A DNA stretch of 32,000 nucleotides from Microcystis aeruginosa NIES-2549 (GCF_000981785.2 NZ_CP011304.1:3330001-3362000); one strand, 5' to 3'; shown: positions 13,901 through 27,387, numbered from the stretch's first letter. A program made the numbers and translations. Notes: generated by a model from the sequence alone, not told the origin.

Positions 13901-16752
13901 TGAATTAGAGTAATAAGAATACATAATAAAAAATTCGTTTGTATTGTTATACCAGAAATCTGTTGCAATATTAATATTACGGCTAATTTATAGGGATCAT
14001 TCATGGGAGAAAGATTAAGTAAACTTTCAATATTTTTTTCTTCTAGAAAAATTTGAATTTTTTCTTTTTCTTGCTTAATTTTTCTTTCGATCTCCTCTGT
14101 TTTTTGAGAAATATCTATTCCTAATTCAGCTAAAAAATTGAGACTAATATCGATTACTTTTTCTTGTTTAAATTTAGCAAAATATGATGAAATCATGTCT
14201 TGATATGCTGGCACTTTGTCAATGCTATTTTTAGCATTTTCAAGAACAATTTTATAAAAATATTCGACCTGCTCAAATTTGTTATTCAAATAGAGAGCTT
14301 CTATAAGTCCTAAATGAATTTCTAACGTTAACTTATAATGGGTTTTCCAACTATTAACGACTAGCAAATTTAAAGAAATTGTCATATATCTTAGATAGGC
14401 TTTATAAGCTGATGATGCTTTGGCTTTTTTCCCTGCTTGAAGATTTAATTTGGCTAACTTATCTTTTTCTAATTGTTCAGTAATTAATTCAGAACCTTCG
14501 TTCAGATGATTGACAATATCGAAAATATTTTTCTGCAACTCATCTTGTTTAATATTTTTCAGAAGTAGGCGACCAACTTGTAAATGAATCGGCTTCTTTT
14601 CTTCTTGTGGAATTAGAGAATAAGCTGCTTGTTGTACTCGGTCATGTAAAAATTTATAGGGAATATCTATGGAGGACTCAGGCTCGTTTTCTAAAAGTTT
14701 ACTCGATAATTCTTCGGAGTTCCATAAAAGAGGAACTTTATATTTATTATCTAAAGGAATTACCAGTCCTTCATCTAAAGCTGATTGTAGTTCTTGAGCA
14801 GTGATTTTTTGAGATTTATTATTTATAATTGCAATAATTTCTAAATTAAATTGGTTGCCAATACAAGCTGCTAGTTTAAGAATATTTTGAGTTTTATGAT
14901 TTAACTTTTTGATTTTATGAACCATCAAATCAACGACATTCTCAGTAATAGATACCCTTTCAACTTGTTCGATATCCCATTGCCAATAACCTCGTTCATT
15001 ATTTTCTGAATTAATCAAAGGAGATTGAGTAGGATTAAATATTAATAAATTATCTTGATACAAAGAATAGATAAGTTGAGTCAGAAAAAAAGGACTGCCA
15101 CCCGTTTTTTTAGCGATTAACTTAGCGAGCGGTTGAGAAATTTCTGTTGAACAATTAAGGGTATCAGCAATTAATTGATTAATGTGCTTAAGTTTTAAAG
15201 GGGAGAGGGTAATCTCCAAAATTGGGACTTGTGCTTGTTTAATATTCTCTAAAGTGTGTACTAGAGGATGGACAGGATTCACTTCATTATCTCGATAAGC
15301 TCCGAGCAGAAAAAAATATTTAATATCCGAATCTGATATTAATTGCTCAATTAAGTTCAGAGAAGGTAAATCAGCCCATTGCAAATCATCAATAAAGATC
15401 ACTAAAGGATATTCTTTTTGGCAAAAAACATTGAGAAATCGTTTAAAAAATAAATTAAAGCGATTTTGACTTTCTGTTCCCCCTAGTGATTCGGCTGGGG
15501 GCTGTTTGCTAATAATTTTCTCAAGTTCAGGAATAACATCGATAATAATTTGACCATTACTACCTAAGACTTCTAATATCTTCTTTTTCCAAGTTTGTAG
15601 AATTATTTCTGGTTCACTTAGCAGTTGACGAATTAAGTCTTGAAATGCTTGAGAAATAGCAGAATAGGGAATATTTCGCTGTAATTGATCGAATTTTCCC
15701 TTAATAAACCGTCCTCGGTGGCGTGTAATAGGTTTATGAATTTCATTAACTAATGCAGATTTGCCAATCCCTGAATAGCCGGAAATTAGAACGATTTCTG
15801 TTGTTCCTTGACTGACTCTCTCAAAAGCGGTGAGAAGTTGATTAATGTTCTGTTCTCGACCATAAAGTTTTTGCGGAATCTGAAATCTTTCCGCTATATC
15901 CTGACTTGCTAAAGGAAATTGTAAAATTTGTCTTTTCATCTTTAATTGATTCAGACAGTTTTCTAAGTCTGCTTTAATTCCCCACGCACTTTGATATCTT
16001 TCCTCTGGCGTTTTCGCTAATAATTTGCTAATGATATTAGAAACAGTTAAGGGAACATCTCGACTGAGTTCATGAACAGGTAAAGCTTGTTGGGCAATAT
16101 GACAATGAACCAACTCCATTGGGTCTGTAGTTTCAAAAGGAAGTCTGTGGGTTAACAGTTCATAAAAAGTTACACCAAGGGAATAAAAGTCACTACGATA
16201 ATCAAGTCCACGATTCATTCTCCCTGTTTGTTCTGGGGCAATATAAGCTAATGTTCCTTCTAATTGATGAGGGGGAACAAGCGTAATTAATTCTTGGGAT
16301 AAACGAGTAGAAATGCCAAAATCAATGATTTGAAGTTGTCCCGTTTTTGGGTTATAGACAATATTAGAAGGGTTAATATCTTTATGGATAATGTTAGCTT
16401 TATGGATGGCCGCTAATCCCTCAGTTATCTTAATGGCAATCATTAGAAATTCTTCTAAGCTTAATTTACTTTGGGAGAGTAATAATTTTAAAGATTGACC
16501 ACCACAATCTTCAAAAAGTATTACTAAGCTATTTTCATATCGCTGTAAGTCATAAGCTTTAACAATATTGTCTACCTTAAGAGAACGGGTAATTTCATAT
16601 TCTTGTTTATAACGAGTTAGCTCTGAGGGCGTAGGATAGTTTTCTTTGAGAATTTTGATAACAATCGGCTGATTATTTTGATTTAAAGTAGCACGGTAAA
16701 CCAATGAATTGGGACTTTCGTAAATTTTTTCGACGATTTGGTAGTCTTTCAT
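10975..16752 (-). CDS. Giant multidomain protein: Ser/Thr protein kinase - AAA_16/STAND-type ATPase - long helical (TPR-like) region - GAF - coiled coil - C-terminal AAA-like (AAA_35-type) NTPase
   Basis: 1925-aa ORF.
- Kinase core: [25 protein letters not shown] (aa ~1-270).
- First NTPase: Walker [15 protein letters not shown] (aa ~322-334) and Walker [12 protein letters not shown].
- GAF-like block: ..[18 protein letters not shown]...[38 protein letters not shown].. followed by a signalling-helix-like coiled coil.
- Last ~372 aa (nt 10978-12093): [63 protein letters not shown], an AAA_35-type module.
No H-box or HATPase motifs are seen. Confidence 0.85.
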
Positions 16753-16770
16753 AATGTTTTAACCCAGTAA

Positions 16771-16816
16771 GCCATAGGATAAACCCATGTTTAAATTTTA
16801 ACACTTATTCTATGGC
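16771..16816 (-). promoter_or_regulatory. Long-stem hairpin in the 87-nt spacer upstream of the giant kinase gene
   Basis: GCCATAGGATAA (16771-16782) pairs with TTATTCTATGGC (16805-16816) at 11 of 12 positions, with a 22-nt AT-rich loop. No U-run follows on the coding (minus) strand, so it is not a classic intrinsic terminator. Confidence 0.35.
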
Positions 16817-16839
16817 TAGGCTAGGTCTTAGGTATTTAA

Positions 16840-17154
16840 TTAGCTACAAGTTGTTGGAAGATAAGGAACCGGTGGAAAGGGATCGCTAACTATTTCGTTT
16901 GGGTTGTTCACATCTACCTTGCTTGTTAACCATGCACGCGGGACATCATCTAAATTAACATTCTCGTCACTGGGTTTGGGAGGATAGGGCAATGTCATAA
17001 TAAAGAAAGGCCCTTTTTGTTCTAGAGAAGGTTGAGGAATTTCTTGGAGACTTCCTTCAAAGGTATCCCATTTGACTTGGAGGAGAAAATAGTCGATTTC
17101 TTCCTGATCAAAAATTGCTCCAAAACTATTATCGGGAAACCAAGGTTCTAACAA
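16840..17154 (-). CDS. Downstream half of a split gene (hypothetical; possible nitrile-hydratase-alpha/NHLP-like C-terminal part)
   Basis: 104-aa ORF with only a TTG start. Its frame stays open upstream to 17217 and overlaps the previous ORF by 7 nt. It contains FFIMTLPYPPKPSDENVNLDD, reminiscent of the ..YLVLP.RP.. strand of NHase-alpha/NHLP domains, and ends in Pro-rich ..SDPFPPVPYLPTTCS. Confidence 0.5.
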   Translation of the reverse strand: MLEPWFPDNSFGAIFDQEEIDYFLLQVKWDTFEGSLQEIPQPSLEQKGPFFIMTLPYPPKPSDENVNLDDVPRAWLTSKVDVNNPNEIVSDPFPPVPYLPTTCS

Positions 17155-17444
17155 ATCTCCTTTTTTCCTGTTAGTAAATCTACCATATCTATATATGTCG
17201 GACTTTGGCGTTGAAAATCATTGTTCTTAAAGTCGAGAAATATCCGCCGTATTTGTTCGGCCTTTTCATGTTTTATCCAAGAAATAGCTACGAGTTGAGC
17301 CAATTTTTTGCACTGTTTTACAATTCGATTATAATAGTTATGTGTAGTCTTTAGACCATCTGAATCTGACGCACGGGAAGCTTTATTGGTATCGGTACTA
17401 ACAACAAAGCTGTGTAATTGCTTGAGACTTTGAGATGTAATCAT
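17148..17444 (-). CDS. Upstream half of the split gene (hypothetical; possible NHase-alpha/NHLP-like N-terminal part)
   Basis: The ATG at 17444 lies 9 nt after an AAGGAG Shine-Dalgarno, whereas the track start at 17483 is a TTG. The product MITSQSLKQLH...KKLAQLVAISWIKHEKAEQIRRIF... loosely resembles the A.VVAKAW.D..FK..L helix of NHase-alpha/NHLP. The ORF ends 4 codons after an A_AAA_AAG heptamer. Confidence 0.5.
   Translation of the reverse strand: MITSQSLKQLHSFVVSTDTNKASRASDSDGLKTTHNYYNRIVKQCKKLAQLVAISWIKHEKAEQIRRIFLDFKNNDFQRQSPTYIDMVDLLTGKKEIC
17160..17166 (-). promoter_or_regulatory. A_AAA_AAG slippery heptamer at the junction of the two half-ORFs (candidate -1 frameshift site, or the site of a 1-nt indel)
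   Basis: The minus strand reads ACA GGA AAA AAG GAG ATT TGT TAG in the upstream frame. A -1 slip on A_AAA_AAG continues as GGA GAT TTG TTA GAA CCT.. (GDLLEPWFPDNSF..), which is exactly the downstream ORF's frame. Confidence 0.45.
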
Positions 17445-17525
17445 GAGCAGAAACTCCTTTGATTTGAAGATTTGTTGAAACAATAGAGACGCTAAATGAT
17501 GGCTAAACTCCGTAAAAAAATTTCT

Positions 17526-18614
17526 TTAAGATGCTAAACCATAAAATCGTTGAGGATTTTCCCAAACGATTTTTTTAACTATCTCCTGAGATAAGTTGTC
17601 TTCAAGTCCTATAACTTTTTTTACCCCATCAGCCTGATGATCCATGTGAGGATAATCAGACCCGAAGATTAAGTTATCAGAACCGATAAAATCAATGACC
17701 TGAGCCAAACAGGGTTCCGAGGGTTCCACTGCAATGTAACACTGACGGCGAAAATACTCCGATGGTAGTAATTTTACCCGACCTTGGACTTCCCAATGTA
17801 AATTTTTATACTCTTCGTCAAGCTTCCATAACCAATAGGGAAGCCAACCACACCCTGATTCTAGAAACGCCACTCTCAGCCTCCGATGACGTTCTAAAAC
17901 CCCCCCTTCAATTAAGGCTAACAGTGCCATCATTTGTTCCATCGGGTGAGAACAAGCATGAAGCGCAAACCGACTATTAAATCGCTCTGCACCAGTGGTG
18001 GGTAAGCGGCTATGAGTGCCTTCATGAATTCCTACAGCCATGTCCAAATCCTCGCAGGCCGTCCAAAAGGGTTCATAGGCTGGATCGCTCAAAATTCTGC
18101 CTTTAACGGGGTTAGGGCGCAAAAAAACCGCCTTCCAGCCCAACTTTGCCATGCGGTGTAGCTCTTTGACCATATCTTCGGGATCGTGTTGATTGACTGC
18201 AGCGACTCCTTTCAGTCTAGCGGGGTCATAGCTACAAAATTCTTCCGATAACCATCTATTATAGGCACGGACAAAAGCCCCCATCACTTCGGCGGGTAGG
18301 CTATCAATGGCAAATAACCACAGTCCATAAGTAGGATAAATAAAAGCCACATCGACCCCCATTTGTACCATTGCTTGAACATGGGACTCTGGGTTATAGC
18401 GATTGAGATAAGCGTGGGGATGAGCTTGCATCATCTGCTTATTCCCTTCTGCTTGGACTTGTGGGGAGATTTTTTGACTAATCGGTTCTCCTTTGATTTT
18501 CATGTCAGCAGAAGGAGCAAATTCCCTAAATTTAGGTTCTAGGTATTGTCCCCACATTGCGGGGGGTTCAATGACGTGGGAATCAGCATCAATAATTTTG
18601 TACCCGTTGAGCAT
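17526..18614 (-). CDS. Metal-dependent TIM-barrel hydrolase/decarboxylase of the Amidohydro_2 (ACMSD-like) family
   Basis: 362-aa ORF. IIDADSHVIEP near the N-terminus is the HxH-type metal site. It also has ..GIHEGTH.., ..AFLESGCGWLPYWL.. and ..LIFGSDYPHMD.., the conserved His/Asp ligands of this family. Confidence 0.8.
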   Translation of the reverse strand: MLNGYKIIDADSHVIEPPAMWGQYLEPKFREFAPSADMKIKGEPISQKISPQVQAEGNKQMMQAHPHAYLNRYNPESHVQAMVQMGVDVAFIYPTYGLWLFAIDSLPAEVMGAFVRAYNRWLSEEFCSYDPARLKGVAAVNQHDPEDMVKELHRMAKLGWKAVFLRPNPVKGRILSDPAYEPFWTACEDLDMAVGIHEGTHSRLPTTGAERFNSRFALHACSHPMEQMMALLALIEGGVLERHRRLRVAFLESGCGWLPYWLWKLDEEYKNLHWEVQGRVKLLPSEYFRRQCYIAVEPSEPCLAQVIDFIGSDNLIFGSDYPHMDHQADGVKKVIGLEDNLSQEIVKKIVWENPQRFYGLAS

Positions 18615-19077
18615 AGCGATTTTTCGGCAATTTTCTACCTAAATTATATTTGATTGGGAAAAAGCGGTCCCTTTTTTTAGGCTTTTTTTTAATCCCCTGA
18701 AACCGCTACAAGTCAGAGGGTAAAAGGGTTTTGATGATTTTAGTCGCCCGATTAATTCATTAGTTCTACTTTCAGTGATGAGGTAGTCATACCATAAAGT
18801 GACCCTTTAAATCTAATACAAATCTAATATAAATCTCATATAAAAGTTAATATTCTGCTCAAAAAAACCTATTAGAAAAGTATTAACTTTAGAGATTGCC
18901 ATTACTCAAAATAAAACTTATTCTGGTATCAAAGGTCATTGAACAAATCACTTTTAACCCAAAAGACAAGGCATTTTGCTTAAGGCATTATGGCTAATCT
19001 AAAAAATTCAGAAATGGATTTTTTTGAGTGTCTTAAGATTTTTAGCCACTCACCTTATTATTTCAGGATAGATAATC

Positions 19078-19656
19078 ATGCAATTACTGTCTTCTTTTGA
19101 ATTACTGGTACAGCCGATCATTCCTAGCAATTTAGCTAAGATGCTTCAATTAGAATCTGTCGATCCTTTAGTGCTACAATCTTACTTTCTAATTCTTTCA
19201 AATGTTAGTTCCGAATCAGTTACAGCAATTCTAGAATTTACAGCAGACACTGGTGGGAATTCTACCTTCAAGGGTAGTCAGGACGGCAACTTTAAACCTG
19301 TCTCTGCTTTTCTGGATCTGACTGCCGCCATGCCATTGAGTGAACCTAACTTTGAAATTACTACCCCTTCTACAGCTAAAGCTATTCTGGCACTCGGTGC
19401 TAAATCTACTGCTACTTTTCTCCTTCAGCCCGATGTCATCCCTGTAGCTAAAGCTATTAAAGACCCTCAATCTCGTGATTTGAGCTTTGAACTACGAGGA
19501 GCAGTTGAAATTTCGGTATCAAGACCTCAATCACTTCTTGTTTCTCCTCAAACGCGGGGAACATTCTTTAAAACGGCTTCAGATACTAATATGCCTCTAG
19601 AAGTTTTTGCCGAACAAGCTTACGGTTTACCGACGGCTAATAGTAATTTCATCTAG
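19078..19656 (+). CDS. Hypothetical protein, no recognisable family
   Basis: 192-aa ORF with an ATG start and non-repetitive, plausible composition. It is preceded by a ~460-nt AT-rich intergenic region. No motif I recognise, and no signal peptide or TM segment. Confidence 0.5.
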   Translation: MQLLSSFELLVQPIIPSNLAKMLQLESVDPLVLQSYFLILSNVSSESVTAILEFTADTGGNSTFKGSQDGNFKPVSAFLDLTAAMPLSEPNFEITTPSTAKAILALGAKSTATFLLQPDVIPVAKAIKDPQSRDLSFELRGAVEISVSRPQSLLVSPQTRGTFFKTASDTNMPLEVFAEQAYGLPTANSNFI

Positions 19657-19793
19657 TATCACTGCTTGAGTTAGGGCAGACTTCTATTCTTTAGTCTTTG
19701 TTATTATTAAGCATTAATTCCTGCTTATCTAAAGATCAGATTGTTCTGTCCTAACCAATTAAATACTAAAAAACAACCAGAGGTCTTACAAGT

Positions 19794-20696
19794 ATGAATA
19801 CTAAGTTTAAATTTATCCCCTTAAGTTTCCATTGGTGCGCTATTCACCCTCAACCAATCGGCGTTGTTTATTTTATTGGTGGTGCATTTTTTGGAACTTT
19901 TCCTAATTTTTTCTATCGTTACCTTCTTCAAGAAGTGTTTGAACAAGGCTATACGATTGTCGCTATTCCCTATCGTTTCACTTTTGATCATTGGTCTGTA
20001 GCGATCAATATTTTTAAAGACTTAGAGGAAGTTAGGAAAAGTCTTTATCAAGAGGCTCTTTCTTTAAACTATACCACTAACATTGGAATCTACTTGGAAT
20101 CACCAATTGCTCAAAACTCTTATTATGTATGGATAGGACATAGCTTAGGTTGTAAATATATCCAACTTTTGGAAATCTTAACTGAGCTAGATTCTCCCGA
20201 TTTAGAGGATTTAAAGAAAAGTCCAATTTTAAGGCAATGTGGCATCCAAGAACAAGCAAAAAATATTAGAAAATCCCTGGATGGTATCACTCTAGCAGAT
20301 GTTTCACTCAAAAACCAGCCATCTATCTTTTTAGCTCCTGTGATTGCAGGAATTCAGAATGCTATCCCCATTCCTTTTTTAGCTAAATTGTTGCAGTATT
20401 TCGGTTTAGATGTACGACCTAGTGTAAAAGAGACGAAGTGCTTAATTAGTCAAAGTAGCTATTTTCAAATACTAGATATAATTGCTTTTAGCAAGGATAA
20501 ACAAGCCAGTAAAACAGTAGAATGGTTCGATCATATATTCGAGGCAAAAAAGCGGTTGAAGGCTTTAATTGTCTTACCTGATCGTATACATCTTGCTCCT
20601 CTTGGCTATCAAGACGGTGATCGAGAAGTTGCCAAAACAGTAATTTACGCTCTTGAAAAATTAAGAACGAAACTATCAATGGTTTTGTTTCAATAG
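19794..20696 (+). CDS. DUF1350-family (alpha/beta-hydrolase-like) protein
   Basis: 300-aa ORF. PIGVVYFIGGAFFGTFPNFFYRYLLQEVFEQGYTIVAIPYRFTFDHW matches the conserved N-terminal block of cyanobacterial/plant DUF1350 as I recall it. A GHSLG nucleophile-elbow-like motif is present. Confidence 0.65.
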   Translation: MNTKFKFIPLSFHWCAIHPQPIGVVYFIGGAFFGTFPNFFYRYLLQEVFEQGYTIVAIPYRFTFDHWSVAINIFKDLEEVRKSLYQEALSLNYTTNIGIYLESPIAQNSYYVWIGHSLGCKYIQLLEILTELDSPDLEDLKKSPILRQCGIQEQAKNIRKSLDGITLADVSLKNQPSIFLAPVIAGIQNAIPIPFLAKLLQYFGLDVRPSVKETKCLISQSSYFQILDIIAFSKDKQASKTVEWFDHIFEAKKRLKALIVLPDRIHLAPLGYQDGDREVAKTVIYALEKLRTKLSMVLFQ

Positions 20697-20771
20697 AAGT
20701 GCGCTCCTGAAAGCAATGCGTAGCAGTAAACTTATCTTGTGGCTTGGTTGACGAATGTAATGTTTTATCAC

Positions 20772-20880
20772 TGCGATCGCTCCTTCTTCTCGATTGGATT
20801 GAAATAACGAAACCCAACACTAATTAAGGTGTGTTACTGCGGTGACATACCTTTTACCTATCAGTTATAATGGAAAGGTT
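20772..20880 (+). repeat. ~105-nt dispersed element, copy A (HIP1 - CTTCTCGATTGG - TTGAAAYAACGAAACCCAAC - hairpin - ATCAGT)
   Basis: It aligns base-for-base with 22603-22626 plus 22869-22950: GCGATCGC..CTTCTCGATTGG / TTGAAA(T/C)AACGAAACCCAACA..TTAAGGTGTGTTACTGCGGTGACA(T/C)ACCTTTTAC..ATCAGT. Confidence 0.8.
20826..20855 (+). terminator. Terminator-like hairpin inside repeat copy A
   Basis: AAGGTGTGT-tactgcggtg-ACATACCTT followed by TTT. This is a 9-bp stem with one G-U pair, about 130 nt downstream of the DUF1350 stop. Confidence 0.4.
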
Positions 20881-21009
20881 TGAAGCCTAGACTTTCATCA
20901 AATGATGCTCATCTCTCTGAAAAATCCTGGTATCGTATCGTACATAGTGTAATGTCGTTGTCACTACATTATGTTAAAATAATTAAGTTTGGAATTACAC
21001 ACCCATCTT

Positions 21010-21300
21010 ATGAGTAGTAAAACAAAAAGTAAGACTCCGCGTAATACCCTAAATTTGCGAATTAAGCCAGAAGAACGCAATTTGATCGATATGGCAGCCA
21101 AAGTGCAAGGTAAGAATAGAACTGATTTTATTTTGGAAGCCGCGCGGAATGCTGCGGAGGAAACTTTGCTCGAACGTACTATTTTTTTGGCTAGTCCAGA
21201 GGCTTATGCAGAATTTATCGCACTTCTAGATGCACCACCTCAACCTAATGAACGTTTACGCAAAACCATGCAGACGCTCGCACCTTGGGAGAAGGAATGA
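21010..21300 (+). CDS. DUF1778 (TacA-like, RHH) antitoxin
   Basis: LNLRIKPEERNLIDMAAKVQGKNRTDFILEAARNAAEETLLE is the typical DUF1778 core. The ATG at 21010 is preferred over the track's TTG at 20989. Its stop overlaps the next gene's start (ATGA). Confidence 0.8.
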   Translation: MSSKTKSKTPRNTLNLRIKPEERNLIDMAAKVQGKNRTDFILEAARNAAEETLLERTIFLASPEAYAEFIALLDAPPQPNERLRKTMQTLAPWEKE

Positions 21301-21791
21301 ATTTGACACCACCTGAACCTCTGGCTAGTTATCACTCAATCACTGATTTTTCCTGCGGAATTACTTCTCTTGATGATTGGTTGAAGCGTCGAGCTTATGC
21401 TAATCAAGCCAGTGGTGCAACTAGAACTTTTGTTACCTGCGTTGACAATAGGGTAGTTGGGTATTACGCCTTTGCTTCCGGGGCGATTAGTATACAATCA
21501 GCTAATGGTAAATTTCGGCGGAATATGCCTAACCCAATTCCAGTGGTAATTTTGGCACGATTGGCAGTAGATACTTCTTACCAAGGTCAAGGTTTAGGAT
21601 GCGGTTTATTTCGTGATGGTGCGCTACGGGTTGTTAAAGCGGCTGATACCATTGGTAGTCGGGGAATTATTGTTCATGCTATTTCAGAAGAAGCTAAGAA
21701 TTTTTATTTGGCTTTAGGTTTTGATGTGTCTCCTCTTGAACCGATGACGTTGATGATTACTCTTAATGATTTACGCGCTTGTATTGCTTAG
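21297..21791 (+). CDS. GNAT-family acetyltransferase toxin (TacT-like)
   Basis: ~164 aa. RLAVDTSYQGQGLGCGLFRDGALRV is the GNAT acetyl-CoA motif (Q/RxxGxG). It is paired by a 4-nt overlap with the DUF1778 gene, which is the canonical arrangement. Confidence 0.8.
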   Translation: MNLTPPEPLASYHSITDFSCGITSLDDWLKRRAYANQASGATRTFVTCVDNRVVGYYAFASGAISIQSANGKFRRNMPNPIPVVILARLAVDTSYQGQGLGCGLFRDGALRVVKAADTIGSRGIIVHAISEEAKNFYLALGFDVSPLEPMTLMITLNDLRACIA

Positions 21792-21942
21792 TGCGCTACA
21801 GGGGCAACACGGGGTCAACCACAGGGGGTTTGCCCCTACAGGTACGTTTAAGTCCAGAATAACTTTGCTTATGGCCTCATGAACAAGATGTTTGCCCTGA
21901 TACACTTTACTTAGATTCAGTGCGATCACCAGTTATCTTTAA

Positions 21943-22173
21943 TTAAGTTTCTCCCTTACTTAAATTATTACAAAACAATTGAATTTCATTGATTATGGTT
22001 TGATAAGAATTAACAATTTGATGGGCGATGATTAAAACCTTTTCCTCTGCGTTTCGATACATGACATCCGATTGATTAGATAATTCTCTTAAAAATATCT
22101 CTAACTGTTGTAGGGCTTGGAGAATTTTATTGAGTTCTTGATTAATTCTATCTTGAATTGATAAATTAGTCAT
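21943..22173 (-). CDS. Small all-helical partner of the nucleotidyltransferase (toxin position, but not a canonical HEPN)
   Basis: 76-aa ORF whose ATG overlaps the MNT stop (ATGA at 22170-22173), indicating translational coupling. No Rx4-6H HEPN motif is visible. Confidence 0.5.
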   Translation of the reverse strand: MTNLSIQDRINQELNKILQALQQLEIFLRELSNQSDVMYRNAEEKVLIIAHQIVNSYQTIINEIQLFCNNLSKGET

Positions 22174-22544
22174 AATTCAACCCCCTGAGCAATTGCTTCT
22201 AAAATATAAGGATGAGCCTTTTGAACTTCTACTAAATCCACCTCAAAATCCTGTCCATTATCTAACTCTGCTATCGCCTTAAAATAATCTTTCTCTGGTA
22301 AATCCCAAACCGCTAAATCAAGATCAGAATGGGGAGTTATTTCTTCATAATTTAACAATGAACCAAATAAAACAACTTTCGTGACTCCATACTTCTCTTT
22401 AAGGAGACTAGCACATTTTTGAGCAATTTTTAACCCTGCTTGTTGCCGTTGTTTCATCTCTAATAGAAATTGTTCGCGGTTTGCTCTCGCTGCTAAAACT
22501 TCAGCAATAATCTCTTGTTTTCGTTCTTCAGTTAACTGTGTCAT
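22170..22544 (-). CDS. Minimal nucleotidyltransferase (MNT/MntA-like, Pol-beta superfamily)
   Basis: VVLFGSLLNYEEITPHSDLDLAVWDL is the GS..(D/E)xD signature. The ATG at 22544 (MTQLTEERKQ..) is preferred over the track's ATT start at 22574. Confidence 0.8.
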   Translation of the reverse strand: MTQLTEERKQEIIAEVLAARANREQFLLEMKQRQQAGLKIAQKCASLLKEKYGVTKVVLFGSLLNYEEITPHSDLDLAVWDLPEKDYFKAIAELDNGQDFEVDLVEVQKAHPYILEAIAQGVEL

Positions 22545-22626
22545 TATGATTACCCCTAAATCATTGAATATCAATAGTTTCTATGATAGCAATGGTTGTG
22601 ATAAGCGATCGCCGATCTTCTCGATT

Positions 22627-22868
22627 GGGCTTCGGCCGTGAGCTCAGGCTTCGACGGTGAGACTTCGGACGTTCGGTGAGACTTCGGACGTTCGGCGAGA
22701 CTTCGGACGTTCGGCGAGACTTCGGCGTGAGACTTCGGCGTGAGCTTTTGTCGAACGCTCAGTCGAACGCTCAGTCGAGCCGCGTGAGCTTTTGTCGAAC
22801 GCTCAGCCGAACCGCCTGTCGAACCGCCGCGTGAGCTTTTGTCGAACGCTCAGCCGAACCGCCGAACG
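22627..22868 (+). repeat. GC-rich compound tandem repeat
   Basis: Three 19-mers ACTTCGGACGTTCGG(T/C)GAG lie at 22661-22717. Two 13-mers ACTTCGGCGTGAG lie at 22718-22743. Three 34-47-nt units begin CTTTTGTCGAACGCTCAG(T/C)CGA.. at 22744, 22788 and 22835. Confidence 0.85.
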
Positions 22869-22900
22869 GTTGAAACAACGAAACCCAACAATATTTTATT

Positions 22901-22930
22901 TAAGGTGTGTTACTGCGGTGACACACCTTT
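22901..22930 (+). terminator. Terminator-like hairpin inside repeat copy B
   Basis: AAGGTGTGT-tactgcggtg-ACACACCTT followed by TT(AC). The stem is a perfect 9 bp, and the T/C difference from copy A keeps the pairing (G-U versus G-C). Confidence 0.4.
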
Positions 22931-23246
22931 TACTATCAGTCATCAGGAGAGCTTATTTATTTTGGTTCTTCGGTTTGTCTTATGCAATGGACGGGGTTAT
23001 AAGGAATGAAACCTTTATAGAGACAGACATTACCGCAATTTTTGTCAATTGTTTGCGATCTGGAGCGAACTAATCAATTAAATCTCTTGCCAGATAAAGA
23101 TTGAGTCGATTTATGCCCCCATATCGAACCATACCAAGTCCCGAAGAGCCTTTATTTTCTGCTTAGATCAGTTAAAATTGAGGAATGATCGGCCTAGAAA
23201 TTGGGTTTATCTTCGTACTTAACCTTAACATGAGAGGGAATCAAAG

Positions 23247-23399
23247 ATGCTGGCAATATCGATGTTCTATGGAATCATCGTTTATAGGTATTTTATAGAT
23301 AACAAACAACACCATATACGGCACATTAACGCTAGGTATCAAGAGGATGAAGTAATTGTCTCAATCCCTGATGGTGAAGTCCTTGAAGGTTCGAGTTAA
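23247..23399 (+). pseudogene. Truncated DUF4160-like ORF (50 codons)
   Basis: MLAISMFYGIIVYRYFIDNKQHHIRHINARYQEDEVIVSIPDGEVLEGSS* resembles the N-terminal two thirds of DUF4160 proteins (..FYGI.I.MY..D...HH.PH.HA.Y.E.EA...I..GEVL.G). The usual C-terminal part and the DUF2442 partner are missing. Confidence 0.4.
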
Positions 23400-23439
23400 A
23401 CTAAAATGATCATCATCTTGCTTGTTAACTAACGAACAA

Positions 23440-23468
23440 TTGACAAACTGATGATCCTGTTATACTAA
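23440..23468 (+). promoter_or_regulatory. Sigma-70-like promoter candidate for the Gp49/XRE operon
   Basis: TTGACA (23440-23445), a 17-nt spacer, then TACTAA (23463-23468). Alternatively TATACT at 23461-23466 with a 15-nt spacer. It lies ~35 nt upstream of the ATG at 23501. Confidence 0.35.
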
Positions 23469-23500
23469 ATTAGGTATAAACCTTAATCATTAACCCCAAC

Positions 23501-23845
23501 ATGGGAGATAAACCCATTTACTGGATTGGGACTTCAAGGGAAGATATTAGAGATTTTCCTGAAGACGCAAAGCGTAAAGCAGGTTTTCAACTGAGAGCTA
23601 TTCAACAAGGAGAGAAACCCAATGATTTTAAACCCATTCCCATTATTGGTCAAGGAACAGAAGAAATTAGAATTTGGACAGGAGAAACCTACAGAATCTT
23701 TTATGTAGCAAGGTTTAAAGAAGCGATTTATGTCCTTCATGCTTTCGGTAAAAAAACACAGAAAACCTCGAAAAAAGAAATTGAATTGGGACAAAAACGT
23801 TATCAACAAATGATTCAATTTAGACAACAATTACAGGAGGGATAA
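23501..23845 (+). CDS. Gp49-like / RelE-HigB family toxin
   Basis: 114-aa ORF. The stretches ..WIGTSREDIRDFPEDAKRKAGFQLRAIQQGEKPNDFKP... and ..YRIFYVARFKEAIYVLHAFGKKTQKTSKKEIELGQKRY are typical of phage Gp49-like (DUF891) toxins, with the toxin gene first as in higBA. Confidence 0.8.
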   Translation: MGDKPIYWIGTSREDIRDFPEDAKRKAGFQLRAIQQGEKPNDFKPIPIIGQGTEEIRIWTGETYRIFYVARFKEAIYVLHAFGKKTQKTSKKEIELGQKRYQQMIQFRQQLQEG

Positions 23846-23847
23846 CC

Positions 23848-24147
23848 ATGACACAATCTAACCCTATTGAGATCACTTTTGGTAGCGATAACATCTTTGA
23901 AGATTTAGGATTTAACAGTGAAGAAGCAACTAACTTAAAAATTAGAGCCGATTTGATGTTAACCTTGCGGTCTTTTATCCAAGAAAAAAGATGGACACAG
24001 CAAGAAGCCGCCACTTTTTTCGAGGAAACACAACCGAAAATTAGTGATTTGATGAATGGAGAAATTAGCCGTTTTACTGTTGATAAATTACTCAGTCTTT
24101 TAGATAAAACGGGAATGAAAGTTAAACTCGAAATCTTCACCAAGTAA
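23848..24147 (+). CDS. XRE-family HTH antitoxin (HigA-like)
   Basis: 99-aa ORF starting 2 nt after the toxin stop. SDNIFEDLGF..EATNLKIRADLM..I...RWTQQEAATFFEETQPKISDLMNGEISRFTVDKLLSLL is the usual partner family of Gp49-like toxins. Confidence 0.8.
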   Translation: MTQSNPIEITFGSDNIFEDLGFNSEEATNLKIRADLMLTLRSFIQEKRWTQQEAATFFEETQPKISDLMNGEISRFTVDKLLSLLDKTGMKVKLEIFTK

Positions 24148-24181
24148 CTTAAAATCATCAACAATTGACCATGAACAAGGG

Positions 24182-26479
24182 TTACATCCACATGGGAAAA
24201 GGATTTAATTCTTCTTCGGTTAAAGCTTCTTTTAACCATCCCATGCTAACAGGAACATCATACAATCTTCCTGCCCCTAAACGCTTCCACATATGACGCA
24301 TTCCGGGGACAATGACTTTAGCTACCCTTAAACCAATATCAGCACGAGTCTGATCTAATACTAACATTTCCATCCCCTTTGACTCAACAATTCGCTGACA
24401 CAATTTAACATCCTCTAATAAATCATCACTGGCTAATTGTAAATAATCATAACTTTTTTTCGGTATTATTTTACTATCGGGAACTAAATAAGATTGATTG
24501 CTTAACCTTGCCGTTTGCCACCATTTAACCGCCAAAGGATCAGCAGAGGGAGGATAAATCGTTGTCCCATCTTCCTTAAAAGATAACACATTCGGTAAGA
24601 TTTGATTAACCTCCGTTAACGCCCGACTAATAGCAATTTTCGGGTCAAAATGCGCCCCATATCCTAATAAAATATCCTCCACTTCCCGCCCCTTTCTCGG
24701 ACTAATAGCAGCAAAACAGGGAATATTCAAATCACTGGTAATATCTAACACCCATAGCTCCCGATTTAACCCCTCATAATATTGCTTTAATTGCTCAAAA
24801 TATGGCTCATTAAAGCTCTCTAAATTAACGGAAGGTTTAACTAATTGATTATACCACCATAAAGCCACACAATCTCGTTCCAATAACTCCATAAACCCTT
24901 GTAAAATCGCTTCCTCTATCGTATTTCCTGCGGCGCAGCCATTAGAATCAGCCCAACAATCTAAGGGTTCAGATTGAGAATAACCATAATAACAATATAC
25001 CGTCGGTAAATATTTAAAATCTTCAGCAGTTAAAGACCATACAGGAGTCCAATCAATGATTCTAGTTTCATCAAAAGGTTCAGGGACTTTTTGAAACCAT
25101 CCTTGATTATTCGCATTCCATTCTTCTCGATGTTGATATTGTTTTTCACTAAAATTCATACATTTGTTAGGATGAATAGCTTTATCTCCTAACTCTTGAT
25201 AACTGGCTTTTTCTCTGATTTCATTCCCTTGAAAAACCCCCGAATACCGCTCAATAGCTTCACAAAATCCACTTGCTTTTGCTTGACTATCTGTACGGCC
25301 TTTTCCCGCACTTCTACCTCCAATATTTTGCCGTAAACTGTCTAAATCATCAAAGACACTGCGAAAATGATGTTTAGCTACATAAGTATGAACTAAAGCA
25401 TTCCCTTGTATCTTATTTAATTCTCGCACAATTCCCGTAATATGACCGATATGATGTTGATAGGTTCTTAAGGTTTCTTCAGGAGAACAAAAACGATGTC
25501 CCCCATCATTGGTAAACGCCTTTTTCCGATGTCCCAAAACCACAGGTAAAGGTGTTTTATTCTGAGAATATCCACAACTAGGACAGTTCGGACGTTTAAC
25601 TAAAATATGCTCTTGAAATTGTAAATTTAAAGTATCATAAGTCATCAGCATTCCTTCTAAACGTTGATTTTTACCTTGAATAATCCACTTAAAAACCTCC
25701 ATAGCCGTCAGATTTAAAACCGTCTGTATTGTCGCTGAAGAAAACCCTAAAGGAGAAATTAAAGAAATCTTATTTTCTCTCTGTCTAATAATAAATTCCT
25801 CCACGGGACGATTATCTCGTAATCGTTGAGCCAAACAATGCCAACAACCAGTTTTATCGGGATCAAATAAGGGACCAATCCAGGCTAGGTTTCCCAGGGG
25901 ATTAACTAATAACCAAGGCTTGTGCGAGGCTAAAGCTTGTTGATTAATACTCTCTAAATCAGGATGAAGATAATTATCGGTTAAAATAATGGTTAAATCC
26001 CCTTCATCTGCGACTTGAACTTGCAAGGAATTTAAAATATTGATCAAATCTTGCTGGGGAATTGAGCCTAGGCTTTTAACCGTAACCTTCAGAGATTGTA
26101 ATCGTTCAAAAGCTTCGGACTGAGAAACCTGAAGATGATGGCATAAAATTGCTAAATTAGACGGCAATAATTCTTTTTTTTCTAATAAAAACCCTCGTTT
26201 ATATAACTGAAAAATTGCTTTTTGAATTGCCAGACTATAATTAATAATAACTGCAAGCGAATTAGGATTATTGGGATTAATTTCTTGATTTTGTAACAAT
26301 TCTAACTGAAGAATATCAATAATTTCATCAAAATTACGTTGACCATCGATTAATCTTACTAAACGATAATAAAGCGGCTCTTGAAAACAGATAGATTCTC
26401 GCTCAGATAGAAAAAATACCGTATTTGGTTCTAAGGTTTCAATTGAGTAGGCAGGATTCCAATCAAGCTGGTTAAACAC
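24182..26479 (-). CDS. Fused E1-like/RRE docking domain + YcaO cyclodehydratase (PatD/TruD/LynD-like azoline-forming heterocyclase)
   Basis: 765-aa ORF with a GTG start.
- The N-terminus ..IETLEPNTVFFLSERESICFQEPLYYRLVRLIDGQRNFDEIIDIL parallels the start of cyanobactin heterocyclases.
- Zinc cysteines are GCWHCL and CPSCG.
- YcaO core: GGRSAGKGRTDSQAKASGFCEAIERYSG, then ..SNGCAAGNTIEEAILQGFMELLERD...
- The C-terminal tail VPGMRHMWKRLGAGRLYDVPVSMGWL..EELNPFPMWM is a Pro-rich terminus, as in azoline-forming YcaOs. Confidence 0.9.
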   Translation of the reverse strand: MFNQLDWNPAYSIETLEPNTVFFLSERESICFQEPLYYRLVRLIDGQRNFDEIIDILQLELLQNQEINPNNPNSLAVIINYSLAIQKAIFQLYKRGFLLEKKELLPSNLAILCHHLQVSQSEAFERLQSLKVTVKSLGSIPQQDLINILNSLQVQVADEGDLTIILTDNYLHPDLESINQQALASHKPWLLVNPLGNLAWIGPLFDPDKTGCWHCLAQRLRDNRPVEEFIIRQRENKISLISPLGFSSATIQTVLNLTAMEVFKWIIQGKNQRLEGMLMTYDTLNLQFQEHILVKRPNCPSCGYSQNKTPLPVVLGHRKKAFTNDGGHRFCSPEETLRTYQHHIGHITGIVRELNKIQGNALVHTYVAKHHFRSVFDDLDSLRQNIGGRSAGKGRTDSQAKASGFCEAIERYSGVFQGNEIREKASYQELGDKAIHPNKCMNFSEKQYQHREEWNANNQGWFQKVPEPFDETRIIDWTPVWSLTAEDFKYLPTVYCYYGYSQSEPLDCWADSNGCAAGNTIEEAILQGFMELLERDCVALWWYNQLVKPSVNLESFNEPYFEQLKQYYEGLNRELWVLDITSDLNIPCFAAISPRKGREVEDILLGYGAHFDPKIAISRALTEVNQILPNVLSFKEDGTTIYPPSADPLAVKWWQTARLSNQSYLVPDSKIIPKKSYDYLQLASDDLLEDVKLCQRIVESKGMEMLVLDQTRADIGLRVAKVIVPGMRHMWKRLGAGRLYDVPVSMGWLKEALTEEELNPFPMWM

Positions 26480-26536
26480 AATTTTTACTCTCTTTTTAAG
26501 GGATGTTAAGGTTAATTATATACCTATAATATAAGG

Positions 26537-26600
26537 TTGATAGCAGTTATCTTAATGGTGAGGTGCGAAGTTTTCGTTTTCGGGAACAGGGAACGGCGAG
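26537..26600 (-). repeat. Dispersed ~65-nt repeat, copy 2 (inverted relative to 1995-2060)
   Basis: Its reverse complement contains ACTTCGCACCTCACCATTAAGATAAC plus similar flanks. It lies ~60 nt upstream of the heterocyclase start. Confidence 0.7.
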
Positions 26601-27039
26601 GGAGCAGCCCATTTATGCCAAAATATAAAAGCGATCGCTAAAATTGATTAAATTTATGCAATATGGAGACAAGTAATTTAGCTTCACTCTCGCCTCTAAG
26701 AAGAAATTAAGCTAGGGATTTAGTCAATTTGGTCAAGAATAATCGGTTAGAGGTGAGAAATCAGACCCCTAATTTCTTCCCTGCCTAAAATTTCTCAATT
26801 TTTCGGAATAAATTTGAGTACCAAAATCAGGGTAAATAACCCAAATATAAACTTAATAAAGTTTTAATAGACATTTAAGCCCTAATAGATCAATCTTACC
26901 TTTTTTAAAGCCGATATGCTGCCTCGATAATCCTTTTAAGACTTGAAAACTGGCTATTCTGTCAGGGGTTGGCCGTGAGAGAGGTCAATTTTCAAGGATA
27001 ATTTGTAACAGAGTGTTGAAAATTCCTTTAATCTTAGTT

Positions 27040-27387
27040 ATGAGCGATCGCCCACCAGAACTAACCCTAGCCGACCAGGCCCCTGCCAACTACGAATGTC
27101 GCTCCTGCGGCTACGTTTACGACCCCAGCAAGGGAGATAGTAAAACCAACACTCCCGCTGGAACCCCCTTCGAGGAATTACCAGAAACGTGGCGCTGTCC
27201 CGTGTGTGGTGTGCGTCGTTCCCAATTTATCAACATCGGAGCTAAAGATGCTCCTTCGGGATTCCAAGAAAATCTTAGCTATGGTTTTGGAGTCAACCGT
27301 CTCACTCCCGCACAAAAAAATATTTTGATTTTTGGGGCTTTAGCGCTAGGATTTGTTTTCTTTATTAGTTTATATGGTTTAAACTAA
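27040..27387 (+). CDS. rubA: Membrane-anchored rubredoxin (PSII-associated RubA)
   Basis: [26 protein letters not shown] carries two CxxC pairs, and a C-terminal hydrophobic anchor is present ([20 protein letters not shown]). It lies immediately upstream of ycf48-psbEFLJ, the conserved cyanobacterial arrangement. Confidence 0.9.

What the first reader, a model, noticed from the sequence alone, without database searches (positions are those of the whole stretch)
24182..27012. Orphan cyanobactin-type (PatD/TruD/LynD-like) fused heterocyclase with no precursor, protease, oxidase or transporter nearby
Seen: a full-length 765-aa ORF with all hallmark blocks:
- an N-terminal RRE-like region;
- the GCWHCL/CPSCG zinc site;
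- the AGKGRT..A.ASGFCEAIERYSG YcaO ATP-binding core;
- a Pro-containing C-terminal tail.
It is flanked on one side by a convergent TA module and on the other by 530 nt of non-coding DNA, then rubA.

I scanned 26480-27012 on both strands. I found only trivial ORFs of 21 codons or fewer, and the one Cys-containing ORF lies inside a dispersed repeat. No PatA/PatG-type protease, PatE-like precursor, SagB-type dehydrogenase or ABC exporter occurs in the 32 kb.

Established: these heterocyclases normally sit in compact RiPP clusters and recognise a leader on a co-encoded precursor.

Inference: there are three possibilities. It could be a trans-acting heterocyclase serving precursors encoded elsewhere, a relic of a degraded cluster that is still intact, or an enzyme acting on a non-canonical substrate. 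The only Cys/Ser/Thr-ending small product in the island is the split gene's ..PFPPVPYLPTTCS tail 7 kb away, and that link is pure speculation.
Basis: partly seen in the sequence, partly recalled or inferred. Interest (0 to 1): 0.7.

Follow-up and report, generated by a model that had tools for sequence, protein, structure and literature searches.

The report
Heterocyclase with overlooked partner genes nearby
The "orphan" ring-forming enzyme belongs to a gene set conserved across cyanobacteria (heterocyclase, thiazole-forming di-iron oxygenase, an unnamed protein ending in Ser/Thr/Cys, a giant kinase); in this Microcystis strain an inserted toxin-antitoxin island splits the set and a frameshift breaks the likely substrate gene.

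Summary
The 765-aa ORF at 24182-26479 (-) is real, intact and a true PatD/TruD/LynD/MusD-type fused heterocyclase. The window holds no canonical cyanobactin genes. The enzyme is nevertheless not orphan.

Its orthologues (56-96% identity, 79 species-level loci) nearly always sit beside three other genes:
- a BarH/LynB7-type di-iron oxygenase;
- an unnamed protein family, here called "X";
- a ~1,930-aa kinase.

All three lie in the window at 10975-18614, 5.5 kb from the heterocyclase across a variable toxin-antitoxin island.

The oxygenase orthologue in Gloeothece PCC 7822 (E0U9F9) has been shown to convert thiazoline-4-carboxylates to thiazoles. Its natural substrate is unknown.

X has no Pfam or NCBIfam match and occurs only in cyanobacteria. 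It always ends ...PPYPY(I/L)P(L/M/V), followed by three or four variable residues that are almost all Ser/Thr/Cys. That is the free C-terminus both enzymes need.

A real 1-nt deletion in an A-run breaks it.

Best reading: this is an undescribed ribosomal pathway that makes C-terminal azoles, and in this strain it has lost its substrate gene. The enzyme pairing is well supported. X as the substrate is inferred.

The parts
24182..26479 (-). Fused RRE / E1-like / YcaO heterocyclase, 765 aa (AOC54136.1 in NIES-2481, AKE65732.1 in NIES-2549)
   Evidence: Seven Microcystis alleles are all intact and the same length, with dN/dS 0.09-0.23.
17526..18614 (-). BarH/LynB7/DolJ/E0U9F9-type amidohydrolase-related di-iron oxygenase (ARO), 362 aa; predicted azoline-4-carboxylate oxidative decarboxylase
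   Evidence: PF04909. Best PDB match is PtmU3 6omp, 5.5e-42. 56% identical to BarH, 60% to LynB7 as rebuilt from the paper's supplement, and 78% to E0U9F9 by tblastn best segment. D11-x-H13 and D320-x-P-H323-x-D325 were found by script. H197 and E252 were read off the alignment numbering. These match the LynB7 ligand list in PMC10127204.
16840..17444 (-). Protein X, short subtype, candidate substrate. Would be 201 aa ending ..PFPPVPYLPTTCS; split here into 17148-17483 and 16840-17154.
   Evidence: Alignment with the long-type X proteins. hhalign of the C-terminal 83 residues against the X profile: probability 96.5%, E 9.7e-10. Intact 201-aa allele in Microcystis sp. M015S2 and in other strains.
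17161..17166 (-). A6 run carrying the 1-nt deletion (A7 in intact alleles) that frameshifts X
   Evidence: blastn alignment of window against L079. The same 104-aa and 98-aa fragments occur in NIES-2549, NIES-2481 and several Logan assemblies.
10975..16752 (-). Giant protein, 1925 aa: Ser/Thr kinase, AAA_16 (STAND-like), TPR, GAF, AAA_35. A conserved neighbour of the cassette; role unknown.
   Evidence: Pfam. Present within 10 kb in 30 of 39 full-flank loci and.
9616..10953 (+). AAA_35 protein, 445 aa; relatives elsewhere also carry HTH_VMAP-M9. A frequent neighbour of the cassette.
   Evidence: PF14516, 7.7e-134. Found next to the cassette and in 14 of 39 full-flank loci.
18615..24181 (.). 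Strain-variable island inserted between heterocyclase and oxygenase: 192-aa ORF (19078-19656), DUF1350 (19794-20696), TacA/TacT (20989-21791), MNT-type nucleotidyltransferase pair (21943-22574), tandem repeats, DUF4160 (about 23260-23399), HigB/HigA (23501-24147)
   Evidence: Pfam calls. Mosaic conservation among Microcystis strains. In other genera the two genes are often 27-90 nt apart.
26480..27012 (.). Intergenic region between the heterocyclase and divergent rubA; no credible precursor ORF
   Evidence: Only ORFs of 34 aa or fewer. No Rfam family. Small indels between strains.

Best explanation
The ORF is the cyclodehydratase of a conserved, cyanobacteria-specific cassette: heterocyclase, BarH-type di-iron oxygenase, protein X, then usually a giant STAND-type kinase.

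Proposed mechanism:
1. The heterocyclase uses ATP to cyclodehydrate one or more of the last three Ser/Thr/Cys residues of X, which ends ...PP(Y/F)PY(I/L)P(L/M/V)-[ST][CTS][STC]-COOH. This leaves a C-terminal azoline-4-carboxylate.
2. The oxygenase then carries out an O2-dependent oxidative decarboxylation to a terminal thiazole or oxazole. This would be the ribosomal counterpart of the BarH/LynB7/DolJ step in barbamide, lyngbyapeptin and dolastatin 10.

In this Microcystis lineage (NIES-2481/NIES-2549) a toxin-antitoxin island of about 5.5 kb separates the heterocyclase from the rest, and X carries a real 1-nt frameshift. The enzyme here has probably just lost its cognate substrate.

Shown: homology, synteny, the motifs, the frameshift, and the oxygenase chemistry on a model compound in an orthologue. 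Inferred: that X is the substrate, which residues are cyclised, and whether the product stays on X or is released.
For: 1. Heterocyclase family membership.

2. Synteny.
- Of 39 species-level loci with at least 8 kb on both sides, 37 have the oxygenase, 30 the kinase and 29 an X detected by tblastn or motif.
- Seven of the eight loci with the oxygenase but no detected X turned out to hold short-type X genes ending ..NPYIPTTCS..NPYIPATSS and similar. L041 was ambiguous and L080 has no gene in the gap.
- Starting instead from X, four of four look-ups found X directly downstream of the oxygenase. Three of these also had the heterocyclase just upstream, and three had the kinase.
- In compact operons the gaps are 27-140 nt, which leaves little room for another precursor gene.

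3. The C-terminus of X.
- All 120 listed homologues end in Y(I/L/V)P, one hydrophobic residue, then three residues (four in three cases) drawn only from Ser, Thr and Cys. Among the 112 with the canonical PY(I/L)P motif there are 20 different tails.
- X is often present in two copies.
- The family has no Pfam, NCBIfam or PDB match and no Pfam hit on record for any listed homologue.
- Only 116 representatives at 50% identity exist among 1.84 billion proteins.

4. The oxygenase.
- 56-60% identical to BarH and LynB7, with the LynB7 metal ligands at the same residue numbers.
- L002:8619-9701 is UniRef100_E0U9F9. It lies beside the heterocyclase orthologue P0037.
[quoted passage not shown] Its clade has a 'thiazoline synthase' neighbour in about 69% of cases and no known product (PMC13154177).
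- LynB7 did not act on the 4-carboxamide analogue, so it needs the free 4-carboxylate (PMC10127204). That requires the heterocycle to be at a C-terminus.

5. Selection. dN/dS is 0.09-0.23 for the heterocyclase and 0.11-0.23 for the oxygenase, against about 1.0 for X in this lineage on small counts (12 non-synonymous, 3 synonymous).

6. The frameshift is real and specific to this lineage.
Against: - There is no experiment on X or on this heterocyclase clade.
- X is 184-457 aa and is predicted to be a well-folded globular protein (pLDDT 84, pTM 0.89). That is unlike any known substrate of a PatD-type enzyme.
- In more divergent X relatives the last residue is often hydrophobic (L, V, I, F, W, G). 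A terminal azoline-4-carboxylate would then need an extra trimming step that no conserved gene obviously provides.
- The oxygenase chemistry has been shown only for thiazolines, while most tails end in Ser or Thr.
- No protease or exporter is conserved, so the final product is undefined.
- The roles of the kinase and the AAA_35 protein are unexplained.
- The remainder of this genome could not be searched for other precursors.
Confidence: 0.6

Rival explanations
1. Trans-acting cyanobactin heterocyclase. The enzyme services PatE-type precursors of a canonical cyanobactin cluster (microcyclamide, aerucyclamide, aeruginosamide or piricyclamide type) encoded elsewhere in the Microcystis genome.
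For: Collinear with LynD/TruD/MusD, with all motifs and the leader-binding domain intact. Heterocyclase and partners can be unlinked: in Symploca SIO2C1 they are on different contigs. Microcystis is known for cyanobactin clusters, some of which lack a D gene (PMC4663559).
Against: The clade is defined by linkage to the oxygenase, X and the kinase, not to PatA/PatG/PatE. None of the eight loci with gene calls carry those genes next to it. All seven Microcystis loci (window plus six) place it next to rubA. The top 120 clade members score at least 1185 bits, against 640-705 bits for the characterised cyanobactin enzymes.
Confidence: 0.1
2. The heterocyclase and oxygenase do work together, but X is not the substrate. 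X would be a scaffold, chaperone or immunity protein. The true substrate would be a small unannotated peptide, a metabolite, or another protein such as the kinase.
For: X is large and confidently predicted to be folded, with no match to any solved fold. The invariant residues are mostly structural. No protease is conserved. In Desmonostoc the cassette lacks the kinase, so composition varies.
Against: X is the only conserved gene product with heterocyclisable residues at a free C-terminus. The tail is constrained to the Ser/Thr/Cys alphabet while its exact sequence varies. Gene duplication and subtype switching are typical of precursor genes. Operon gaps are too short for another gene.
Confidence: 0.2
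3. Decaying relic. The heterocyclase is a functionless remnant in Microcystis, kept only by chance after the cluster was broken up.
For: The cluster is interrupted by a TA island in every Microcystis locus examined. X is frameshifted here. In strain S464 X is replaced by an RPE65-like gene.
Against: Seven of seven alleles are full length with dN/dS of 0.09-0.23. The 90%-identity cluster has 383 members. The oxygenase is equally constrained. Intact X alleles exist in at least six other Microcystis strains.
Confidence: 0.1

Closest known systems
Cyanobactin heterocyclases PatD / TruD / LynD / MusD (PDB 4bs9, 4v1t, 7u58)
   Same: Same three-domain architecture (winged-helix RRE, E1-like domain with two CxxC pairs, YcaO). 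Collinear over 757 of 765 residues. Same ATP-site blocks and the same C-terminal NPxPM. From memory, not tested here: MusD acts on adjacent Thr residues at the end of a short core, which resembles the ..TTCS and ..LSTT tails.
   Different: No PatA/PatG proteases, PatE-type precursor, PatB/C, prenyltransferase or oxidase domain. The conserved partners are instead a di-iron oxygenase, protein X and a giant kinase. The candidate substrate is a 184-457-aa protein rather than a peptide of about 70-100 aa.
BarH / LynB7 / DolJ and E0U9F9: amidohydrolase-related di-iron oxidative decarboxylases that make C-terminal thiazoles (PMC10127204; PMC13154177)
   Same: The cassette oxygenase is 56-60% identical to BarH and LynB7 and carries the same ligand set. 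E0U9F9 is the direct orthologue, sits next to the heterocyclase orthologue in PCC 7822, and has the thiazoline-4-carboxylate to thiazole activity.
   Different: BarH, LynB7 and DolJ act after NRPS release of a thiazoline-4-carboxylic acid. Here the azoline would be made ribosomally by a YcaO enzyme. The published work notes the neighbouring 'thiazoline synthase' but names no substrate or product.
NHLP/Nif11-type azoline pathways with protein-like leaders (Haft 2010, PMC2887384; PMC12455567)
   Same: A fused, cyanobactin-related cyclodehydratase acts on the C-terminal end of an unusually long, structured precursor, with no PatA/G (PMC4603692). X has superficially NHLP-like motifs (..SQLIAKTW....IPYPPIP..).
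   Different: X matched no NCBIfam model at all, so not the NHLP/Nif11 models either. The X profile finds no nitrile hydratase in the PDB. The confident model has no Foldseek match. X is about four times longer, and its 'core' is only three or four residues.
Pathways that build a small moiety on the C-terminal residues of a carrier peptide (mycofactocin MftA, PQQ PqqA, pearlins); comparison from general knowledge
   Same: Only the last few residues of a ribosomal product are chemically transformed. A radical SAM/SPASM enzyme accompanies the short-type X in several loci.
   Different: The enzymes are unrelated (YcaO plus di-iron oxygenase), the carrier is a folded protein, and no releasing peptidase is conserved.

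Membership tests
PatD/TruD/LynD-type fused heterocyclase (enzyme family) | Three domains: N-terminal RRE winged helix, E1/ThiF-like domain, YcaO domain | tested here: met
   PF21084 at residues 8-58, ThiF at 163-300, YcaO at 391-728. TIGR03882 at 188 bits and TIGR03604 at 260 bits. Full-length alignment to LynD and TruD.
PatD/TruD/LynD-type fused heterocyclase (enzyme family) | ATP/Mg-binding blocks of the YcaO domain and the C-terminal Pro-rich tail intact | tested here: met
   The KASGFCEAIERYSG, QGFMELLERD, ISRALTEVNQ and NPFPM blocks align with the identical or near-identical blocks of MusD, LynD and TruD. Individual catalytic residues were not mapped on a structure.
PatD/TruD/LynD-type fused heterocyclase (enzyme family) | Structural zinc site of four cysteines (CxxC...CxxC) | tested here: met
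   GCWHCL and CPSCG align with GCWDCL/CPTCG of LynD and GCWHCL/CPTCG of TruD. Metal binding itself is not testable here.
Cyanobactin biosynthetic gene cluster | PatA and PatG subtilisin-like proteases adjacent | tested here: not met
   None in the window or 10 kb beyond. None next to orthologues in seven other genomes.
Cyanobactin biosynthetic gene cluster | PatE-type precursor with leader and recognition sequences flanking the core | tested here: not met
   No such ORF in 26480-27012 or elsewhere in the window. The remainder of the genome was not searchable.
BarH/LynB7/DolJ clade of amidohydrolase-related dinuclear oxygenases (partner gene 17526-18614) | N-terminal D-x-H and C-terminal D-x-P-H-x-D/E motifs on a PF04909 fold (definition in PMC13154177) | tested here: met
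   D11-S-H13 and D320-Y-P-H323-M-D325. PF04909, 2.7e-34.
BarH/LynB7/DolJ clade of amidohydrolase-related dinuclear oxygenases (partner gene 17526-18614) | Close sequence relationship to characterised oxidative decarboxylases | tested here: met
   56% to BarH. 60% to LynB7, rebuilt from a machine-read supplement and therefore approximate. 78% to E0U9F9.
BarH/LynB7/DolJ clade of amidohydrolase-related dinuclear oxygenases (partner gene 17526-18614) | Oxidative decarboxylation of azoline-4-carboxylates | not testable with these tools
   Shown for the orthologue E0U9F9 and for LynB7 in the literature. Not shown for the Microcystis protein or for oxazolines.
NHLP (nitrile-hydratase-like leader peptide) precursors | Match to the NHLP models or the nitrile hydratase alpha fold | tested here: not met
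   No NCBIfam hit for five X proteins at E up to 5. No PDB profile hit. No Foldseek hit for a model with pTM 0.89.
Linear azol(in)e peptide / TOMM cluster in the classical sense | FMN-dependent SagB/McbC-type dehydrogenase and a short Cys/Ser/Thr-rich precursor | tested here: not met
   No such gene in the window or in the related loci that have gene calls.

The most novel reading that the evidence does not exclude
X is not a disposable leader. It is a folded protein with a previously unseen fold, and its own C-terminus is converted into one to three azol(in)es ending in a decarboxylated terminal azole. That would be the first ribosomal route to the barbamide/dolastatin-type C-terminal azole and the first protein-sized substrate of a cyanobactin-type heterocyclase. 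The modified protein, or a fragment released from it, would then act together with the co-conserved STAND-type kinase and the AAA_35/HTH proteins as a signalling or conflict module. The strain-to-strain swapping of X, the radical SAM gene and the kinase N-terminus in Microcystis would fit this.
Probability: 0.25. Interest if true: 0.85.

Novelty: new variant of a known kind. Interest (0 to 1): 0.62.

Why it matters
A 2026 biochemical study showed that E0U9F9-type oxygenases make thiazoles. It noted a neighbouring thiazoline synthase but left the natural substrate and product unknown. The present analysis names a concrete, testable candidate: a cyanobacteria-only protein family whose last three residues are Ser/Thr/Cys.

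If this is right, three things follow.
- It defines a new class of ribosomal pathway, in which a YcaO enzyme and a di-iron oxygenase act on the extreme C-terminus of a protein-sized precursor.
- It explains hundreds of 'orphan TOMM/cyanobactin-like' annotations in cyanobacterial genomes, including bloom-forming Microcystis.
- It offers a stable enzyme pair for installing C-terminal azoles on proteins.

For this window specifically, the heterocyclase is not a mystery singleton. It is one half of a cassette split by mobile toxin-antitoxin genes.

Tried and rejected
1. NHLP idea. From memory, the ..SQLIAKTW.. and ..IPYPPIP.. motifs of X looked like nitrile-hydratase-type leaders. Rejected as a membership claim: no NCBIfam hit, no PDB profile hit, no Foldseek hit.

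2. Bottromycin analogy, with the amidohydrolase as a PurAH-like thiazoline-specific peptidase. Rejected: PurAH is not among the PDB matches. The protein has the oxygenase-specific D-x-H and D-x-P-H-x-D motifs. LynB7, its close relative, is only 14% identical to PurAH (PMC10127204).

3. Small precursor ORF in the 533-nt upstream region. Only ORFs of 34 aa or fewer, none conserved or Cys/Ser/Thr-rich in a meaningful way. No Rfam family anywhere in the window.

4. Frameshift as a sequencing error. Rejected: the same fragments occur in two independent complete genomes and in several read-based assemblies.

5. Promoter and terminator scan of 16700-27100: no more sites than in shuffled sequence, so uninformative.

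6. Literature searches for the cassette: orphan heterocyclase; YcaO with amidohydrolase and kinase; Amidohydro_2 with YcaO; PF14516; Microcystis reviews; the 2015 TOMM landscape paper. None describes X or the kinase association. Only PMC13154177 mentions the oxygenase/thiazoline-synthase neighbourhood. The library holds open-access papers only, so a description in a subscription journal cannot be excluded.

7. The second Amidohydro_2 gene in PCC 7822 (L002:13694-14809) is unrelated to BarH and is not part of the conserved core.
Full report
**Origin of the window.** The 765-aa protein maps exactly to CP012375.1, a 4.29-Mb chromosome of assembly GCA_001704955.2. The accessions tie it to Microcystis aeruginosa NIES-2481 and to the near-identical NIES-2549.

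**The observation.** The ORF at 24182..26479 (-) exists as described.
- It has a YcaO domain (2.8e-102), an N-terminal winged helix and a ThiF-like middle region.
- It passes the curated NCBIfam cut-offs for the TOMM leader-binding domain (188 bits against 36.9) and the SagD-type domain (260 against 219).
- It aligns end to end with MusD, LynD and TruD. This includes both cysteine pairs, the ATP-site blocks and the C-terminal NPxPM.
- No PatA/G, PatE, SagB-type or exporter gene appears among the window ORFs scanned, nor in the gene kb beyond.

So the enzyme identification is right.

**Why it is not orphan.** The protein has a very large set of close relatives across Chroococcales, Nostocales, Oscillatoriales and Pleurocapsales. 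The top 120 are 60-96% identical and score at least 1185 bits. The characterised cyanobactin enzymes score 640-705 bits.

Gene calls around three orthologues (Gloeothece PCC 7822, Cylindrospermum PCC 7417, Scytonema PCC 7110) showed the same neighbours each time:
- an Amidohydro_2 protein of about 361 aa;
- one or two proteins of 347-385 aa with no Pfam domain;
- a ~1,930-aa Pkinase / AAA_16 / GAF / AAA_35 protein.

I then fetched 79 species-level loci and scored them by tblastn. Among the 39 loci with at least 8 kb on both sides:
- 37 carry the Amidohydro_2 gene, often 27-90 nt downstream of the heterocyclase;
- 30 carry the kinase;
- 29 carry a detectable copy of the no-Pfam protein, which I call X.

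Eight loci had the Amidohydro_2 gene but no detected X. Seven of them hold a shorter X subtype, one (L041) was ambiguous, and one (L080) has no gene in the gap.

Starting from X gave the same picture. In four of four look-ups X lies directly downstream of the oxygenase. In three of them the heterocyclase is just upstream.

The window contains the whole set on the heterocyclase's strand and in the usual order:
- oxygenase at 17526-18614;
- X at 16840-17444;
- kinase at 10975-16752;
- the frequent AAA_35 neighbour at 9616-10953.

**What separates them here.** The 5.5 kb between heterocyclase and oxygenase holds HigBA, DUF4160, an MNT-type pair, TacAT, DUF1350 and a 192-aa ORF.
- Among six other Microcystis loci this stretch is a mosaic of shared and unshared pieces.
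- The heterocyclase, oxygenase and rubA flanks stay 93-97% identical.
- All seven Microcystis loci keep the heterocyclase next to rubA.
- In Symploca SIO2C1 the heterocyclase and the oxygenase-X-kinase block lie on different contigs.

Physical linkage is therefore not required for the genes to coexist.

**The oxygenase.** The best solved relative of the Amidohydro_2 protein is PtmU3, a non-heme di-iron monooxygenase (5.5e-42). Next come SfbO-type proteins and DitZ, and only then the decarboxylases.
- Published work defines 'amidohydrolase-related dinuclear oxygenases' by an N-terminal D-x-H and a C-terminal D-x-P-H-x-D/E (PMC13154177). The window protein has D11-S-H13 and D320-Y-P-H323-M-D325.
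- Together with H197 and E252 (read from the numbering), these are the ligand positions reported for LynB7 (PMC10127204).
- It is 56% identical to BarH. It is 60% identical to LynB7 as I rebuilt it from the machine-read synthetic gene in that paper's supplement, so this figure is approximate.
- LynB7 converts 2-substituted thiazoline-4-carboxylic acids to thiazoles and did not act on the 4-carboxamide analogue.
- The PCC 7822 protein next to the heterocyclase orthologue is exactly UniRef100_E0U9F9.
- E0U9F9 was shown in 2026 to carry out the same reaction with a di-iron cofactor. The authors note that its clade has a 'thiazoline synthase' neighbour in about 69% of cases and no known natural product.

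The heterocyclase/oxygenase pairing is therefore already noticed in the literature. The substrate is not.

**Protein X.**
- X has no Pfam, NCBIfam or PDB sequence match.
- Every listed homologue is annotated 'hypothetical' where a name exists. All named sources are cyanobacteria.
- An exhaustive profile search of 1.84 billion representatives finds only 116.
- An AlphaFold model of the Scytonema member is confident (pLDDT 84.3, pTM 0.89) and globular, with a less confident last five residues. It has no significant Foldseek match in the PDB.

The most striking feature is the C-terminus.
- All 120 listed homologues end in Y(I/L/V)P, one hydrophobic residue, then three residues (four in three cases) drawn only from Ser, Thr and Cys.
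- Among the 112 with the canonical PY(I/L)P motif there are 20 different tails (LSCT, LSCS, LSTS, LSCC, LSSS and so on).
- In more divergent representatives the -3 and -2 positions stay Ser/Thr and Cys/Thr/Ser, but the last residue can be hydrophobic.
- Genes are often duplicated.
- A short subtype (184-245 aa..NPYIPTTC[ST]) usually comes with a radical SAM/SPASM gene.

A tail held to the heterocyclisable alphabet while its exact sequence drifts, placed at a free C-terminus next to an enzyme that needs an azoline-4-carboxylate, is what a substrate of this enzyme pair should look like. This remains an inference.

**The window's X.**
- Its C-terminal 83 residues match the long-type profile at 96.5% probability.
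- The conserved ..KKLAQLVAISW.. and ..LPYPPKP.. motifs line up in the alignment.
- Compared with Microcystis sp. M015S2 the only indel is A6 against A7 at 17161-17166.
- The resulting 104-aa and 98-aa fragments are found in both NIES-2549 and NIES-2481 and in several read-based assemblies. Intact 201-aa alleles occur in at least six other strains. The frameshift is therefore real and lineage-specific.
- dN/dS between the repaired window allele and the intact allele is about 1.0 (12 non-synonymous, 3 synonymous; small numbers). It is 0.11-0.23 for the oxygenase and 0.09-0.23 for the heterocyclase.
- Other Microcystis strains carry a different short X plus a radical SAM gene (LEGE 91341), or an RPE65-like gene in its place (S464). 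Their kinase 5' ends are only 67-80% identical to the window's.

**Mechanism proposed.**
1. The RRE/E1-like part of the heterocyclase docks on X.
2. The YcaO domain uses ATP to cyclodehydrate one or more of the last three residues.
3. The terminal azoline-4-carboxylate is oxidatively decarboxylated by the di-iron oxygenase to a terminal azole.

Steps 1 and 2 are inferred from family membership and synteny. The chemistry of step 3 is shown for the orthologous oxygenase on a model compound only. The data do not decide whether the modified tail stays on X or is released, nor what the kinase and the AAA_35/HTH proteins do.

**Limits.**
- I could not search the remainder of this genome for PatE-like genes.
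- I could not run a complex prediction.
- The paper library holds open-access papers only.
- The LynB7 sequence used is an approximate reconstruction. The BarH and E0U9F9 comparisons rest on database sequences.

**Verdict.** The ORF call is correct and 'orphan' is not. The finding is best filed as a member of a widespread, still uncharacterised heterocyclase/di-iron-oxygenase cassette with a newly proposed protein-sized substrate. In this strain the cassette is split by mobile genes and has lost that substrate gene to a frameshift.

Noticed in passing
window 20799-20857 and 22870-22933: Two direct repeats of about 60 nt (89-95% identical) bracket the TacAT and MNT-type modules, 2.07 kb apart. 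This suggests the pair arrived or was duplicated as a unit.
   Followed up: no
window 22622-22872: Two adjacent tandem-repeat arrays (units of about 19 nt and about 44 nt) lie between the MNT-type pair and DUF4160. The 52-93-aa ORFs listed there are probably artefacts of the repeats.
   Followed up: no
window 3345-4568: TnpB / IS605 OrfB-type gene (Cas12f1-like TNB plus OrfB_IS605), next to CheW, an MCP and a GT2-TPR gene.
   Followed up: no
L049:16771-18897 (Microcystis aeruginosa LEGE 91341): The same locus in another strain carries a different short X (220 aa..DNPYIPTTCS) plus a 459-aa radical SAM/SPASM gene absent from the window. The same pairing occurs in L033, L038, L043, L062 and L081.
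   Followed up: partly
L029:19048-21150 (Microcystis aeruginosa S464): X is replaced by a 700-aa RPE65-like (carotenoid-oxygenase family) ORF, and the oxygenase match is shorter there.
   Followed up: no
window 15986-16754 versus L049 and L029: The 5' end of the giant kinase gene is only 79.5% and 67% identical between Microcystis strains, while the heterocyclase and oxygenase are 93-97% identical. The distal half of the cassette appears to be exchanged or to diversify.
   Followed up: no
L020 and L090 (Symploca sp. SIO2C1); L089 (Caldora): The heterocyclase is unlinked from oxygenase-X-kinase and is instead preceded by an alpha/beta-hydrolase gene 40-60 nt upstream.
   Followed up: partly
L002:12358-14809 (Gloeothece PCC 7822); L006:12992-14614 (Scytonema PCC 7110): Lineage-specific extra genes lie directly after the heterocyclase: a glutamine-synthetase-like ligase plus an unrelated Amidohydro_2 in PCC 7822, and a flavin amine oxidase in Scytonema. 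These could be further tailoring enzymes.
   Followed up: no
   Followed up: no
window 17151-17160: An AGGAG lies 2 nt before the TTG that opens the downstream 104-aa X fragment. That fragment keeps the whole profile-matching C-terminal region and the TTCS tail, so residual expression cannot be excluded.
   Followed up: no
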